A model generated the notes under the pieces. The model saw nothing but the letters and a program-made list of their open reading frames with translations. It was not told the DNA's origin and searched no databases. A program made the translations under genes and the position numbers. Shown one piece after another: positions 20,815 to 22,837 of a stretch of DNA of 22,945 nucleotides; position 1 is the first letter of the stretch, and each line of letters starts with the position of its first letter. Source of the DNA: a virus; the IMG/VR virus record IMGVR_UViG_3300031578_000354; one strand, given 5' to 3'.

Positions 20815-21324
20815 TTAAAACTCCAATTTGTTATGAGTTATGTATTCCAAAGCAGCCCTTGGAATTAAATTACTAACATCCTGGCCATTCTTAAGTCGCT
20901 CCCTTATCTCTGTTGAGCTAATGTCGGGAAGGGCGCAAGCGCCCTGTTCACCTCGTGGCACAATAATAATAGGAACCAGTTCCTTAATCTTATCATAATC
21001 TTTCCAGTCTGCCCACTGATTACAAATATCTGATCCCACTATTAGAGAATATGAATAATAAGGCTTTGTTTTTGTAAGATACCGTAGAAGATCTATCGTG
21101 AACTTATGGTCGAAATTCATAATACTGGCATAGGAATTATGAAACGTTTTTACACACAGTTCGTATCGCTGCCAAAAAACCAACATTGATTTGTTGAATG
21201 GATGTTCCCTTACAGGAACAATCCAAATGCGATCCAAATCATTTAATGCCAGAACATATTGGCACGCTAAAACATGTCCTATATGTGGAGGATTAAAACT
21301 CCCGCCAAATATTCCTATCTTCAT
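20815..21324 (-). CDS. nadD: nicotinate/nicotinamide mononucleotide adenylyltransferase (NadD/NMNAT family)
   Basis: GIFGGSFNPPHIGH is the (H/T)xGH cytidylyltransferase-fold motif in NadD context (GGTFDPxHxGH). The C-terminal ISSTEIRERL is the NadD ISSTxIR motif. 169 aa. ATGA overlap with the upstream gene. Confidence 0.8.
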   Translation of the reverse strand: MKIGIFGGSFNPPHIGHVLACQYVLALNDLDRIWIVPVREHPFNKSMLVFWQRYELCVKTFHNSYASIMNFDHKFTIDLLRYLTKTKPYYSYSLIVGSDICNQWADWKDYDKIKELVPIIIVPRGEQGACALPDISSTEIRERLKNGQDVSNLIPRAALEYITHNKLEF

Positions 21325-21545
21325 TTTATATCAATATTAGTGTGTCTTTCAACAGTAATCTGTTTTGGAGTAAGCTCTCCTTCAAACACCACAAGAAGTT
21401 CAGACAATATTTGTGAAAAATCCTTATGGTCTGTATCCAAATCCTCTTCAACAATAAATTCATCTATGAGCTTAGTAATATCTTGTTCATTCGCAATCAT
21501 TACCTTTAATACGTCATTATGGCTATAAATCAATGTGTATTTCAT
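21321..21545 (-). CDS. small hypothetical protein (74 aa), paralog of 21546..21815
   Basis: Shared core EEDLDTDHKDFSQILSELLVVFEGEL vs KDLDTESHHFKRDLSEFLLLFDGEL. Confidence 0.5.
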   Translation of the reverse strand: MKYTLIYSHNDVLKVMIANEQDITKLIDEFIVEEDLDTDHKDFSQILSELLVVFEGELTPKQITVERHTNIDIK

Positions 21546-21815
21546 TTATATTCTCCATTCATATCCTGGTTTTGAACTTGGCTCTTCAATGTTAATATCA
21601 AGCGTAACAATTTGTTTCGCAGAAATCGGCCTGGCTTTTAACTCTCCATCGAATAGAAGTAAAAATTCTGACAGGTCTCGTTTAAAATGATGACTTTCAG
21701 TATCTAAGTCTTTAGACTCGACTATTTCAGCAACAAATTCCGATAGTTCTTTAGAAGAGTTAAGATGTTTAATCTCCATATAGTCGTTGTCATCTCTGTA
21801 AATAGCAGTATACAT
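21546..21815 (-). CDS. small hypothetical protein (89 aa; start revised to ATG 21815, which overlaps the PncA-like stop as TAATG)
   Basis: The track start at 21833 is a TTG. The ATG at 21815 has GGGGTGA 5 nt upstream. Confidence 0.5.
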   Translation of the reverse strand: MYTAIYRDDNDYMEIKHLNSSKELSEFVAEIVESKDLDTESHHFKRDLSEFLLLFDGELKARPISAKQIVTLDINIEEPSSKPGYEWRI

Positions 21816-22837
21816 TACTTCACCCCTGGCCAATTCATAATAGGATCGGTTGATTTGACAACATGCATGCCAGCATCGGAGAATTTTTTGAAAGACTCGT
21901 CAGCCTGATCGGTAAAGTCAATAACTCCCGGTATAATTACTGGAGACGTACAATCTTCAAGCAGGTAAACCTTTCGAGCAAGGGTAGGATCCTGAGCATT
22001 AATCTCATTCAATAGATCTTGAATAGTCCAAGCCACGCAATGGCTCTTGGCTTGCCCAGCAATAACAACAACATCATAATCAAGAAGTTTCTTGATAAAA
22101 GTAGCGTTCTTTTGAGCAATGGGGCGACCCTTATAGTCTTCAAGTACTTCCGGTCTGAGCACAGAATAGTTCTCCGTCAGTGGATTTCCGCCCTTAATCT
22201 CAAACCGCGTCTGACTATTGCGAGCAATTGAATGGAAGAACATAGCCTCTTCTACAGAGCCCACAAGTGCATGCCCAACACCACCAAGCATAGCATGATA
22301 CGGCCAAACAAGAAGAGCATATTTACCATCAGATGAAAGCTGCTTCACATAGTGTAGAGCATGTTGTTGAAGGCCAACATAGTTACCGCCCGCCACACTC
22401 TGTGCAACTGCAGGGTTCACCTTCCATCGACCACTCTCTACATCACCCACGTTAATCATAGTCACACCAGGCTCAGGGTTATTGCCATCATCATCAATCC
22501 AGAACACAGAGTGAAAGATCTGCATCGCCAAGTGTGTATCCATAGTAGGAGCAATATTTGTAATTGCGCCAAGGTTCCTATAGATAAACTCACATAGACG
22601 ATTAGAGTCCTTCTCAGCACCAGCTACATACAACTGTCCAGTAGGAAGACAGAAAGTATTCTGGCAATCAATTGCCATTAGACACAGTTTCAAACTGTCT
22701 GTAGCGGATGGGGAAAGACTATGAGTCTTTGCCCAGCTTTTAGCACTTACGGCCAAAGCCTGATAGTTTATATTCATTAACTTGGTAGCATTAAGTGGAC
22801 TAAAGTGATCCGGGATTGGAAGTTCGTTCCTAGCCAT
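21815..22837 (-). CDS. isochorismatase-family cysteine hydrolase, nicotinamidase (PncA)-like, 340 aa
   Basis: Three family motifs are present. The Asp motif is LMAIDCQNTF (D-x-Q-N-x-F). The Lys motif is KGGNPLTENYSVL. The catalytic Cys motif is VVIAGQAKSHCVAWT. AGGAG RBS upstream. Confidence 0.7.
   Translation of the reverse strand: MARNELPIPDHFSPLNATKLMNINYQALAVSAKSWAKTHSLSPSATDSLKLCLMAIDCQNTFCLPTGQLYVAGAEKDSNRLCEFIYRNLGAITNIAPTMDTHLAMQIFHSVFWIDDDGNNPEPGVTMINVGDVESGRWKVNPAVAQSVAGGNYVGLQQHALHYVKQLSSDGKYALLVWPYHAMLGGVGHALVGSVEEAMFFHSIARNSQTRFEIKGGNPLTENYSVLRPEVLEDYKGRPIAQKNATFIKKLLDYDVVVIAGQAKSHCVAWTIQDLLNEINAQDPTLARKVYLLEDCTSPVIIPGVIDFTDQADESFKKFSDAGMHVVKSTDPIMNWPGVK

What the first reader, a model, noticed from the sequence alone, without database searches (positions are those of the whole stretch)
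20815..22837. NadD-type adenylyltransferase plus PncA-like amidase: possible phage NAD+ salvage and anti-defence module
The isochorismatase-family hydrolase (DxQN.F motif, K motif, catalytic Cys motif) and the NadD (GGSFNPPHIGH, ISSTEIR) are interleaved with two tiny paralogous ORFs and joined by TAATG and ATGA overlaps. Together they could convert nicotinamide to nicotinate and then to NaAD or NAD in Preiss-Handler-type salvage. Phage-encoded NAD+ reconstitution pathways are known to overcome NAD-depleting immunity such as Thoeris, DSR, SIR2 and SEFIR systems. This enzyme pairing, PncA-like plus NadD, differs from the described Nampt plus Nmnat or Adps plus Namat pairs. The 340-aa hydrolase also has a ~100-aa N-terminal extension of unknown role.
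Basis: partly seen in the sequence, partly recalled or inferred. Interest (0 to 1): 0.7.

Follow-up and report, generated by a model that had tools for sequence, protein, structure and literature searches.

The report
Phage nicotinamidase-like enzyme plus NadD operon
A probable large-phage operon encodes a divergent nicotinamidase-type enzyme, its conserved vWA-like partner and an NadD-type adenylyltransferase, most likely to recycle nicotinamide into NAD+ during infection; the enzyme belongs to a widespread NAD-linked kinase/phosphatase gene cassette for which I found no published description.

Summary
On the minus strand, 22837..19511 is one tightly packed seven-gene unit: a 340-aa hydrolase, two small paralogues, a 169-aa NadD-like protein, two more small paralogues and a 263-aa vWA-like protein. 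A 17-bp hairpin terminator follows.

Its conserved partner is the vWA-like protein, not NadD. In bacteria and jumbo-phage contigs the pair usually sits in a cassette of PP2C phosphatase, Ser/Thr kinase, hydrolase and vWA. That cassette often lies next to the NAD regulator NrtR and, in different loci, next to PncB, NadE, NadD, a macrodomain or canonical PncA.

So a Preiss-Handler-type nicotinamide salvage role is well supported by context. The window encodes only steps 1 and 3, with no PncB or NadE. The anti-defence role is untested.

Phage Preiss-Handler clusters have already been reported in jumbo phages. The new elements are this enzyme family and its kinase/phosphatase/vWA/NrtR cassette.

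The parts
21815..22837 (-). 340-aa nicotinamidase-type (PncA-like) cysteine amidase of a divergent, Pfam-invisible family. Key residues: D57/K215/C267 triad, D100/H102/H181 metal site, F62/W178 ring stacking, G261-x-A263 cis-peptide/oxyanion motif.
21546..21815 (-). Small ORF s1 (89 aa), paralogue of s2. Its start overlaps the hydrolase stop (TAATG).
   Evidence: No homologue outside this phage lineage.
21321..21545 (-). Small ORF s2 (74 aa), paralogue of s1. Its stop overlaps the NadD start (ATGA).
20815..21324 (-). 169-aa NadD-type nicotinate/nicotinamide mononucleotide adenylyltransferase, a short form. Motifs GGSFNPPHIGH and ISSTEIR.
   Evidence: PF01467 E 8e-14. TIGR00482 E 2e-29 but below the curated cut-off. 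B. subtilis NadD 1kam E 5e-15 over residues 2-167. 40% identical to the NadD beside the same cassette in jumbo-phage contig L012.
20550..20813 (-). Small ORF s3 (87 aa, acidic C-terminus), paralogue of s4.
20314..20526 (-). Small ORF s4 (70 aa), paralogue of s3.
   Evidence: Its link to s1/s2 is only suggestive.
19511..20302 (-). 263-aa vWA-like protein (MIDAS-type D61-x-S-x-S65 ... T130 ... D166), the conserved genomic partner of the hydrolase.
   Evidence: 64% identical to the gene immediately downstream of the hydrolase orthologue in Spirulina major. Adjacent to the hydrolase in 37 of 80 genome loci and in 7 of 8 viral loci, the eighth (L015) holding only a hydrolase fragment. Invariant motif columns. 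Pfam VWA is hit by only one distant member.
19469..19509 (-). Intrinsic-terminator-like hairpin (17-bp stem, T-rich tail) directly after the vWA stop. It marks the 3' end of the unit.

Best explanation
The unit is a phage-borne Preiss-Handler-type nicotinamide salvage module.

Proposed steps:
1. The 340-aa protein is a metal-dependent cysteine amidase of the nicotinamidase type. It deamidates free nicotinamide, the product of every NAD+ glycohydrolase, to nicotinate.
2. A nicotinate phosphoribosyltransferase (PncB) that is not encoded in the window converts nicotinate to NaMN. It would come from the host or from elsewhere in the phage genome.
3. The phage NadD-like enzyme adenylylates NaMN to NaAD.
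4. An NAD synthetase (NadE), also not in the window, finishes NAD+.

The vWA-like protein is the hydrolase's conserved partner, probably a metal-dependent binding or regulatory subunit. In most relatives a PP2C phosphatase and a Ser/Thr kinase accompany the pair.

The benefit to the phage is to keep or rebuild the NAD+ pool during infection, including when host NADase defences fire.

Shown here (computationally): operon anatomy, nicotinamidase fold and active site, NadD family features, and NAD-gene neighbourhoods of relatives.

Inferred: the substrates, the supply of the two missing steps, the role of the vWA-like protein and of the four small ORFs, and any anti-defence effect.
For: Anatomy:
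- Seven co-directional genes with overlapping or abutting stops and starts, closed by a 17-bp hairpin terminator.

Hydrolase:
- AF2 model has pLDDT 97.4 and pTM 0.94.
- hhalign of the family profile to E. coli PncA gives probability 98.9%, E 2e-17, covering PncA residues 4-204.
- Conservation in 96 diverse members: D57 95, K215 94, C267 93, D100 91, H102 95, H181 96, F62 96, W178 93, A263 92.
- These are the triad, metal ligands, cis-peptide Ala and cavity residues that define nicotinamidases (PMC3581539).
- From general knowledge of PncA structures, the metal in PncA binds the free ring nitrogen. A retained metal site therefore argues for a free pyridine amide rather than NMN, NR or NAD.

NadD:
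- Full-length match to solved NadD structures (1kam E 5e-15). Both nucleotidyltransferase motifs are present.

Context of hydrolase relatives:
- L088: NrtR, cassette, PF00857 isochorismatase (PncA-like), NadD-NAD kinase fusion, PncB.
- L052: the same set.
- Jumbo-phage L012: NadE, cassette, macrodomain, NadD.
- Phage L010/L011: NAPRTase directly upstream of the cassette.
- NrtR occurs in 21 of 80 genome loci and only where cassette genes are present.
- Viral relatives of this NadD sit next to PncA-NadE-NAPRT (L102), NadE (L103) and NrtR (L101).

Literature:
- Jumbo phages with Preiss-Handler gene clusters have been described (PMC11662467).
Against: - No PncB or NadE is in the 22.9-kb window, so the pathway is incomplete as encoded here.
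- L088 and L052 carry a canonical PncA as well as this hydrolase. The family may therefore do something other than plain nicotinamide deamidation.
- The hydrolase's constant partners are a vWA-like protein, a kinase and a phosphatase. These are not expected for a simple salvage enzyme.
- The family has a ~47-aa N-terminal extension and a ~50-aa insertion over the active-site region, which could change the substrate.
- NadD scores below the TIGR00482 equivalog cut-off (102.9 versus 112.45 bits). It has HPFNK where NadD has PPHK/R, so NaMN versus NMN preference is unknown.
- The NadD association is seen in only two phage lineages plus two or three bacterial loci. One of those, L025, looks like a coincidental housekeeping NadD.
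- No experiment links any family member to NAD levels or to phage defence.
- Phage origin rests on PHROG hits and relatives in IMG/VR. No structural gene lies in the window.
Confidence: 0.6

Rival explanations
1. The hydrolase and the vWA-like protein are the output half of a phospho-regulated system: NrtR, PP2C, Ser/Thr kinase, hydrolase and vWA, resembling a TerY-P triad. The purpose would be controlled removal of nicotinamide rather than NAD+ synthesis. One possible aim is to starve nicotinamide-dependent NAD+ reconstitution by (other) phages through NARP1 or NARP2. Another is to relieve nicotinamide product inhibition of NAD-consuming enzymes. On this view NadD is an accessory passenger.
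For: - The full cassette is present in 26 of 80 genome loci and in viral loci L010-L014.
- NrtR, an ADP-ribose-sensing regulator (PMC2330246), accompanies only cassette-bearing loci.
- TerY-P-like modules act as stand-alone antiphage systems (as cited in PMC11090510).
- A canonical PncA coexists with the cassette in L088 and L052.
- NARP1 and NARP2 both consume nicotinamide (bioRxiv 10.1101/2024.02.11.579819).
Against: - The window has no kinase, PP2C or NrtR. The gene upstream of the hydrolase is a serpin.
- In phages the cassette is flanked by NAD-building genes (NAPRTase, NadE, NadD), which fits synthesis.
- 35 of 56 full-flank genome loci have the hydrolase alone, as expected for an ordinary enzyme.
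- No PADLOC model hits the hydrolase or the vWA-like protein.
Confidence: 0.15
2. The hydrolase is an isochorismatase-superfamily amidase with a substrate other than nicotinamide, for example another heteroaromatic or small amide, or a modified nucleobase or nucleotide. The NadD-like enzyme adenylylates a non-NAD substrate. The unit would then make or destroy a different metabolite.
For: - No Pfam PF00857 or NCBIfam hit.
- Large family-specific insertion and extensions.
- Sequence identity to solved nicotinamidases is only 16-25%.
- NadD is below its equivalog cut-off and has an altered PPHK motif.
- Superfamily members with a very similar fold hydrolyse maleamate, carbamoylsarcosine, biuret and ureidoacrylate.
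Against: - The metal-binding D/H/H site, typical of nicotinamidases and not listed among features of the wider cysteine-hydrolase family (PMC3581539), is nearly invariant here.
- Nicotinamidases outrank all other superfamily members in both fold searches.
- Repeated neighbourhood with NrtR, PncB/NAPRTase, NadE, NadD-NAD kinase and a macrodomain.
Confidence: 0.12
3. The contig is not a phage but a bacterial chromosome, plasmid or island fragment. On this view the genes are ordinary cellular NAD metabolism or defence-island genes.
For: - No capsid, portal, terminase or tail gene in the window.
- Lon protease, AAA ATPase, E2-like and MVP-like genes also occur in cells.
- The closest hydrolase and vWA relatives outside the lineage are cyanobacterial, at about 65% identity.
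- No megablast match to GenBank phages.
Against: - Strong PHROG matches: phrog_15585 E 5e-239, phrog_388 E 1e-62, phrog_3532 E 1e-60, and Rnl1-type ligase phrog_562.
- All genes lie on one strand, with many tightly packed ORFan small genes. The small ORFs have no homologue in 5.8 billion proteins.
- The same hydrolase/vWA/NadD/AAA set occurs in a 318-kb IMG/VR contig.
- A Gad2-family hit is precomputed on the identical 213-aa gene.
Confidence: 0.1

Closest known systems
Nicotinamidase/pyrazinamidase PncA / Pnc1 (EC 3.5.1.19; isochorismatase-like cysteine hydrolases; PDB 2h0r, 2wt9, 3pl1, 1im5, 9u8m)
   Different: - 340 aa versus 180-216 aa, with a ~47-aa N-terminal helical extension and a ~50-aa insertion between the metal ligands.
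- No hit to Pfam PF00857, NCBIfam or any PDB sequence.
- Encoded with a vWA-like partner and usually a kinase and a PP2C phosphatase.
- Activity is untested.
Bacterial NadD (nicotinate-nucleotide adenylyltransferase; TIGR00482; PDB 1kam, 1k4k)
   Same: HxGH-type motif GGSFNPPHIGH, ISSTEIR motif, and end-to-end alignment with solved NadD structures.
   Different: - Short (169 aa). It lacks a loop of about 30 aa before the ISST motif.
- HPFNK replaces PPHK/R.
- Below the TIGR00482 cut-off.
- Same length class as the PRK08887 short NadD-like family.
- Substrate preference unknown.
NAD-jumbo phages with Preiss-Handler clusters pncB-nadD-nadE (Microbiome 2024, PMC11662467)
   Same: Large-phage genomes that carry NadD and other deamidated-route NAD genes in clusters. 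L102, L103 and L012 found here are of this kind.
   Different: - Here the first step is supplied by a non-canonical nicotinamidase family that standard annotation misses.
- It is tied to a vWA-like gene.
- pncB and nadE are absent from the window.
Phage NAD+ reconstitution pathways: NARP1 (Adps+Namat), NARP2 (Nampt+Nmnat), NARP3 (PnuC+NadR)
   Same: Two-enzyme phage modules that start from NAD+ breakdown products or precursors and are proposed or shown to restore NAD+.
   Different: - Different chemistry. This route is deamidated, passes through nicotinate, and needs two further enzymes.
- None of the NARP enzymes is present in the window.
- No experimental anti-defence evidence.
TerY-P triad (vWA TerY + PP2C phosphatase + Ser/Thr kinase with zinc ribbon)
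   Same: Relatives of the window's hydrolase/vWA pair sit between a PP2C_2 phosphatase and a ~618-aa kinase with a Cys-rich zinc-ribbon-like segment, giving the same three-part logic.
   Different: - A nicotinamidase-like enzyme is inserted between the kinase and the vWA-like gene, and NrtR is attached.
- The vWA-like protein hits neither PADLOC nor Pfam VWA.
- The window itself has only the vWA-like member.

Membership tests
Nicotinamidase (PncA/Pnc1) | Isochorismatase-like alpha/beta fold that is closest to solved nicotinamidases | tested here: met
Nicotinamidase (PncA/Pnc1) | Catalytic triad Asp-Lys-Cys | tested here: met
   D57, K215 and C267 are present in the window protein and in 95, 94 and 93 of 96 diverse members. 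They align to the E. coli PncA triad regions. Feature definition from PMC3581539.
Nicotinamidase (PncA/Pnc1) | Metal-binding motif of one Asp and two His | tested here: met
   D100-x-H102 and W178-P-x-H181 are conserved in 91, 95 and 96 of 96 members and align to SQDWH and FWPDHC of E. coli PncA. Metal binding itself was not tested.
Nicotinamidase (PncA/Pnc1) | cis-peptide/oxyanion motif: Gly-x-Ala four residues before the Cys | tested here: met
   G261-Q-A263-K-S-H-C267. A263 is present in 92 of 96 members. The cis geometry was not checked in coordinates.
Nicotinamidase (PncA/Pnc1) | Match to the Pfam Isochorismatase model PF00857 or an NCBIfam nicotinamidase model | tested here: not met
   No family at E up to 10. 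Only some distant (39% identical) L002-like relatives carry a precomputed PF00857 hit.
Nicotinamidase (PncA/Pnc1) | Hydrolysis of nicotinamide to nicotinate | not testable with these tools
   Needs an enzyme assay.
NadD (NaMN adenylyltransferase) | (H/T)xGH and ISxxxxR nucleotidyltransferase motifs | tested here: met
   GGSFNPPHIGH and ISSTEIR. PF01467 E 8e-14.
NadD (NaMN adenylyltransferase) | Full-length similarity to characterised NadD | tested here: met
   1kam E 4.7e-15, residues 2-167 aligned to 8-191. 18 PDB sequences hit: 17 named NadD-type adenylyltransferases and one uncharacterised protein, VPA0413.
NadD (NaMN adenylyltransferase) | Score above the curated equivalog cut-off (TIGR00482) | tested here: not met
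   102.9 bits against a cut-off of 112.45.
NadD (NaMN adenylyltransferase) | Preference for NaMN over NMN | not testable with these tools
   The PPHK/R motif is replaced by HPFNK. Neighbours of related phage NadDs are deamidated-route genes, which is only suggestive.
vWA domain (TerY-like) | MIDAS motif DxSxS ... T ... D | tested here: met
   D61, S65, T130 and D166 are invariant in 10 partners, including 18-24% identical ones.
vWA domain (TerY-like) | Significant match to a vWA profile or structure | tested here: inconclusive
   Pfam VWA is hit by 1 of 10 members at E 0.0014, and the window protein has no hit. No PDB profile hit. hhalign to E. coli ViaA gives probability 5.8% but aligns the MIDAS motifs.
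TerY-P triad | vWA plus PP2C phosphatase plus Ser/Thr kinase encoded together | tested here: not met
   The window has no kinase or PP2C, and the upstream gene is a serpin. The feature is met in relatives: 26 of 80 genome loci and viral loci L010-L014.
TerY-P triad | Recognised by PADLOC defence-system models | tested here: not met
   No PADLOC hit for the hydrolase, the vWA-like protein, NadD or the small ORFs.
NARP1 / NARP2 / NARP3 | Adps+Namat, Nampt+Nmnat, or PnuC+NadR encoded | tested here: not met
   No NAPRTase/Nampt-family hit in the window by tblastn. Among the window ORFs scanned with Pfam (all of those of 231 aa or more), none is of these kinds. Adps and PnuC were not searched for specifically in the small ORFs.
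Complete Preiss-Handler pathway (PncA, PncB, NadD, NadE) | All four steps encoded | tested here: not met
   PncB and NadE are absent from the 22.9-kb window. The rest of the phage genome is unknown.

The most novel reading that the evidence does not exclude
The hydrolase/vWA pair is the output of a five-gene module for which I found no published description: NrtR, PP2C, Ser/Thr kinase, nicotinamidase-like enzyme and vWA. The module would couple ADP-ribose sensing and phospho-signalling to nicotinamide deamidation, and both sides of the NAD+-depletion conflict would use it. Bacteria would use it to remove nicotinamide and so starve phage NARP1 or NARP2, or to reset NAD+ after abortive signalling. 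Jumbo phages would have captured it and joined it to NadD, NadE or PncB, channelling the same nicotinamide into a route the host cannot block. The four lineage-specific small paralogues would be regulators or inhibitors within this conflict.
Probability: 0.2. Interest if true: 0.85.

Novelty: new variant of a known kind. Interest (0 to 1): 0.6.

Why it matters
NAD+ depletion is one of the commonest antiphage strategies. Three phage counter-pathways are known, and all start from nicotinamide, ADP-ribose or nicotinamide riboside without deamidation.

This locus points to a deamidated route whose first enzyme standard annotation misses. Surveys of phage NAD genes would therefore undercount it.

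The family is large: 2382 clusters at 50% identity. It may also be the unrecognised nicotinamidase of many cyanobacteria whose pncB-nadD-nrtR-nadE operons lack a listed pncA.

Its fixed association with a kinase, a PP2C phosphatase, a vWA-like protein and the ADP-ribose sensor NrtR suggests that nicotinamide recycling is under signalling control in many bacteria and jumbo phages. That is directly testable with a few clones.

Tried and rejected
1. Direct sequence annotation of the hydrolase (Pfam up to E 10, NCBIfam, PHROGs, PADLOC, PDB phmmer and PDB profile) found nothing usable.
2. The first AF2 run used 24 close homologues and gave pLDDT 54, so I discarded it. A 96-sequence alignment from the representative search fixed it.
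3. Megablast of the region against GenBank phages gave no match.
4. NadD next to the cassette in L025 was rejected as evidence. It is the housekeeping NadD after ruvA in a cyanobacterial chromosome.
5. I looked for kinase, PP2C, NrtR, PncB, NadE, macrodomain and canonical PncA in the window and found none.
6. I tried to reach the 55.6-kb contig of this phage to see beyond the window end, but the look-ups returned only shorter contigs.
7. The small ORFs have no homologues outside the lineage, no PDB match, no Pfam or NCBIfam hit and only marginal PHROG hits for s4. Uniting the two paralogue pairs into one family is not statistically supported (hhalign probability 12%).
8. vWA membership could not be settled by profile methods.
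9. The paper on NAD biosynthesis in cyanobacteria (PMC1446974) is not held.
10. nrtX/nrtY of the NrtR paper could not be identified from the text.
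Full report
**1. What is in the sequence**

All genes of the window run on the minus strand. From 22837 to 19511 there are seven tightly packed genes:
- a 340-aa hydrolase (22837..21815), with a GGAG ribosome-binding site upstream;
- an 89-aa ORF, s1 (21815..21546);
- a 74-aa ORF, s2 (21545..21321);
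- a 169-aa NadD-like protein (21324..20815);
- an 87-aa ORF, s3 (20813..20550);
- a 70-aa ORF, s4 (20526..20314);
- a 263-aa protein (20302..19511).

TAATG joins the hydrolase and s1, s1 and s2 abut as TAAATG, and ATGA joins s2 and NadD. Gaps of 1, 23 and 11 nt follow.

Directly after the last stop lies a hairpin with a 17-bp stem and a T-rich tail (19509..19469). It is the only strong terminator-like site in the region. The unit is therefore longer than the finding's coordinates.

Independent gene calls on near-identical contigs give the same genes.

**2. The small ORFs**

- s1 and s2 are paralogues (31.5% identity, E about 3e-9 to 5e-9). s3 and s4 are a second pair (29.6% identity, E 5e-7).
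- The four share an F-x-G-(E/K)-L motif, but a profile comparison of the two pairs is not significant (probability 12%).
- A profile of all four finds only themselves among 5.8 billion proteins and nothing in the PDB.
- They are lineage-specific ORFans of unknown role.

**3. The hydrolase**

Sequence searches:
- There is no hit in Pfam (even at E up to 10), NCBIfam, PHROGs or PADLOC. No PDB sequence matches, by single sequence or by profile.
- Yet the family is large. More than 8000 clusters at 90% identity were retrieved, many from cyanobacteria at about 65% identity. At 50% identity, 2382 representatives match at E up to 1e-3.

Structure:
- A first model from 24 close homologues was poor (pLDDT 54).
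- With 96 diverse representatives the model is very confident (pLDDT 97.4, pTM 0.94).
- Foldseek against the PDB puts nicotinamidases/pyrazinamidases in the first 11 places.
- The family profile aligns to the whole of E. coli PncA with probability 98.9% (E 2e-17).

Active site:
- The features that define nicotinamidases are the Asp/Lys/Cys triad, the Asp/His/His metal site, the Gly-x-Ala cis-peptide before the Cys, and the Phe and Tyr-Ser cavity residues (PMC3581539).
- All are present in the window protein and nearly invariant in the 96 sequences: D57 95/96, K215 94, C267 93, D100 91, H102 95, H181 96, A263 92, F62 96, W178 93, Y224 88.
- From general knowledge of PncA structures, the metal binds the unsubstituted ring nitrogen of nicotinamide. 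A retained metal site therefore favours a free pyridine amide over NMN, NR or NAD. This is inference.

Where the extra length lies:
- A helical N-terminal extension of about 47 aa.
- An insertion of about 50 aa between H102 and the W178-P-Y-H181 motif.
- It is not a 100-aa N-terminal extension.

**4. The NadD-like protein**

- It hits PF01467 (E 8e-14) and the NadD equivalog TIGR00482 (E 2e-29). It is below the curated cut-off, at 102.9 versus 112.45 bits.
- It aligns end to end with solved NadD structures (B. subtilis 1kam, E 5e-15).
- Both nucleotidyltransferase motifs are intact.
- It is a short form. It lacks a loop of about 30 aa and has HPFNK in place of PPHK/R.
- It is in the same length class as the PRK08887 short NadD-like family.
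- Family membership is solid. NaMN versus NMN preference cannot be read from the sequence.

**5. The conserved partner of the hydrolase is not NadD**

- The 263-aa protein at the end of the unit is 64% identical (E 3e-127) to the gene immediately downstream of the hydrolase orthologue in the Spirulina major chromosome.
- Even hydrolase homologues only 33-39% identical, in a gut phage scaffold (L002) and a 485-kb phage (L003), are followed at once by a homologue of this protein.
- It carries an invariant MIDAS-type pattern, D61-x-S-x-S65 ... T130 ... D166.
- Profile evidence for a vWA fold is weak, so I call it vWA-like.

**6. The cassette**

Census of the 80 best genome loci:
- 37 have the vWA-like gene 21-1062 bp downstream of the hydrolase.
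- 30 have a ~618-aa Ser/Thr-kinase-like protein with a Cys-rich segment just upstream.
- 28 have a PP2C_2 phosphatase upstream of that.
- 26 have all three.
- Of the 56 loci with full flanks, 35 have the hydrolase alone.

Other points:
- Hosts span Cyanobacteria, Actinomycetota, Patescibacteria, a Woesearchaeota bin, Entotheonellaceae and a Gammaproteobacteria bin.
- Pfam confirms PP2C_2 (E 6e-17) and, weakly, Pkinase.
- The same order, PP2C-kinase-hydrolase-vWA, occurs in IMG/VR contigs of 42-318 kb (L010-L013). In the 545-kb contig L014 the vWA-like gene lies upstream instead.
- This is the logic of the TerY-P triad: vWA, PP2C and a kinase with a zinc ribbon (PMC11090510). Here a nicotinamidase-like enzyme is inserted.
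- I found no paper that combines these elements.
- In the window itself no kinase or PP2C is present. The gene upstream of the hydrolase is a serpin.

**7. The link to NAD metabolism**

- NrtR is the Nudix-related, ADP-ribose-responsive regulator of NAD genes (PMC2330246). It lies next to the cassette in 21 of 80 genome loci, and never in loci that have the hydrolase alone.
- L088 reads as follows:
  1. NrtR
  2. PP2C
  3. kinase
  4. an unknown N-terminal domain fused to the hydrolase
  5. vWA-like protein
  6. a stand-alone paralogue of that N-terminal domain
  7. a PF00857 isochorismatase 31% identical to E. coli PncA
  8. a NadD-NAD kinase fusion
  9. a Nudix-like protein
  10. PncB
- L052 is similar. 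L040 has a NAPRTase after the vWA-like gene.
- In the 318-kb viral contig L012 the order is NadE (PF02540, E 2e-28), AAA ATPase, a small gene, PP2C, kinase, hydrolase, macrodomain (5e3b, E 2.5e-32), vWA-like protein, a 160-aa gene, and a NadD 40% identical to the window's.
- In L010/L011 a NAPRTase (E 4e-23) directly precedes PP2C.
- Viral relatives of the window's NadD sit beside PncA-NadE-NAPRT (L102, 356 kb), NadE (L103) and an NrtR-like gene (L101, 536 kb).
- Across loci, every step of the route from nicotinamide to NAD+ appears next to this hydrolase or this NadD.

**8. Most likely mechanism**

The proposed route:
1. The hydrolase deamidates nicotinamide to nicotinate.
2. A PncB not encoded in the window makes NaMN.
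3. The phage NadD makes NaAD.
4. A NadE not encoded in the window makes NAD+.

Further points:
- Nicotinamide and ADP-ribose are the products of NADase defence effectors (bioRxiv 10.1101/2024.02.11.579819).
- In many bacteria, cyanobacteria among them, pncB, nadD and nadE belong to the predicted regulon of NrtR, an ADP-ribose-responsive regulator. A phage that supplies the nicotinamidase and extra NadD could ride on a host regulon already switched on by ADP-ribose. This last point is speculation.
- Shown by computation: the anatomy, the fold and active site, NadD membership, and the gene neighbourhoods.
- Inferred: the substrates, the source of steps 2 and 4, the role of the vWA-like protein and the small ORFs, and any effect on defence.
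- Confidence is about 0.6.

**9. Rivals**

1. The pair is the output of a phospho-regulated, NrtR-linked system that removes nicotinamide, rather than a biosynthetic module. It might, for example, deny nicotinamide to NARP1 or NARP2. Canonical PncA coexisting in L088 and L052 and the kinase/phosphatase partners fit this. The NAD-building neighbours in phages and the many stand-alone copies argue against it.
2. The substrate is a different amide. The insertions and the missing Pfam hit allow it. The retained metal site, the fold ranking and the NAD neighbourhoods argue against it.
3. The contig is not a phage. The window has no virion genes. Against this stand several points:
   - strong PHROG matches (phrog_15585 E 5e-239, phrog_388 E 1e-62, phrog_3532 E 1e-60);
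   - single-strand packing with ORFan small genes;
   - a homologous hydrolase/vWA/NadD/AAA set in a 318-kb IMG/VR contig;
   - a precomputed Gad2-family hit.

   Together these make a large phage the better reading.

**10. Comparison with what is known, and novelty**

- Phage NAD+ rebuilding is known as NARP1 (Adps+Namat), NARP2 (Nampt+Nmnat) and NARP3 (PnuC+NadR). None of those enzymes is in the window.
- Jumbo phages with salvage or Preiss-Handler gene sets, including pncB-nadD-nadE clusters, were reported from metagenomes in 2024 (PMC11662467). Phage NadD and a deamidated route are therefore not new.
- Phage G carries a PncA-like gene of unknown role (PMC12484599).
- In BFVD the only structural relatives are giant-virus nicotinamidases.
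- New here: (a) a large nicotinamidase-type family that standard domain models miss, and (b) its conserved cassette with a vWA-like protein, kinase, PP2C and NrtR in bacteria and jumbo phages.
- I rate it a new variant of a known kind, with interest 0.6.

Noticed in passing
window 22877..22945 (-); fuller in L001 1-192 and L131 1-366: The gene upstream of the hydrolase ends in a typical serpin C-terminus: hinge EEGTEAAAATA, then DRPFIFAIWD...FMGRVVKL. This looks like a phage-encoded serpin.
   Followed up: partly
window 12445..15000 (-): 851-aa protein with a Major Vault Protein shoulder domain (PF11978, E 1e-17) and a weak vault repeat. This is unusual in a phage-like contig.
   Followed up: no
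window 5184..7538 (-) and 7538..8899 (-): A full-length Lon protease (substrate-binding, AAA and Lon_C domains; phrog_15585 E 5e-239), overlapped at its start by a 453-aa AAA ATPase. That ATPase is 30% identical (E 1e-47) to the AAA ATPase lying between NadE and the PP2C-kinase-hydrolase cassette in jumbo-phage contig L012.
   Followed up: partly
window 8896..10026 (-) and 15428..16630 (-): RNA-repair-type genes: a T4 Rnl1-like RNA ligase (PF09511; phrog_562) and an RlaP nucleotidyltransferase (PF10127; phrog_388 E 1e-62). An RNA ligase also follows the cassette in L010.
   Followed up: no
window 10654..11295 (-): 213-aa nucleotidyltransferase-like protein. The identical gene on contig L132 carries a precomputed Pfam hit to PF26128 (Gad2, an anti-Gabija family). 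My Pfam scan at E up to 0.001 found nothing.
   Followed up: no
window 718..1413 (-) and 3607..4350 (-): A prokaryotic E2 family D protein (PF14460, E 8e-12) and a DUF7227 protein (E 3e-70).
   Followed up: no
P0007, P0008, P0076; L052 7305-7973; L088 7188-9038 and 10209-10976: A ~240-aa domain of unknown function (...GRI(L/I)RGK...LTDD...VMLMGPDGL...) is fused to the N-terminus of the hydrolase in some members (582-616 aa). It also occurs as a stand-alone paralogue in L088. No significant Pfam hit: none for the fusion proteins at E up to 0.01, and only a weak below-cut-off Mito_fiss_Elm1 match (E 9e-4) for the stand-alone paralogue.
   Followed up: partly
L101 6257-6844 (536-kb IMG/VR contig); L102 2871-7594 (356-kb contig): One jumbo-phage contig encodes an NrtR-like regulator (40% identical to a bacterial NrtR) next to NadD. 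Another encodes canonical PncA, NadE, NAPRTase and NadD together.
   Followed up: partly
L016-L095 (80 genome loci): About half of the cyanobacterial loci (35 of 56 with full flanks) carry the hydrolase alone. The family may be the unlisted nicotinamidase of cyanobacteria whose NrtR operons contain pncB-nadD-nadE but no pncA.
   Followed up: partly
L002 1400-2851: In the gut phage scaffold, a 483-aa DUF2828/DUF7788 (TROVE/vWA-like) protein lies directly upstream of the hydrolase homologue. A vWA-like gene, a PP2C-like gene and a kinase fragment lie downstream.
   Followed up: no
window versus L008/L009: Between near-identical contigs the hydrolase differs at 4.4% of residues. NadD, the four small ORFs and the vWA-like protein are 100% identical, hinting at recombination or diversifying change confined to the hydrolase.
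   Followed up: no
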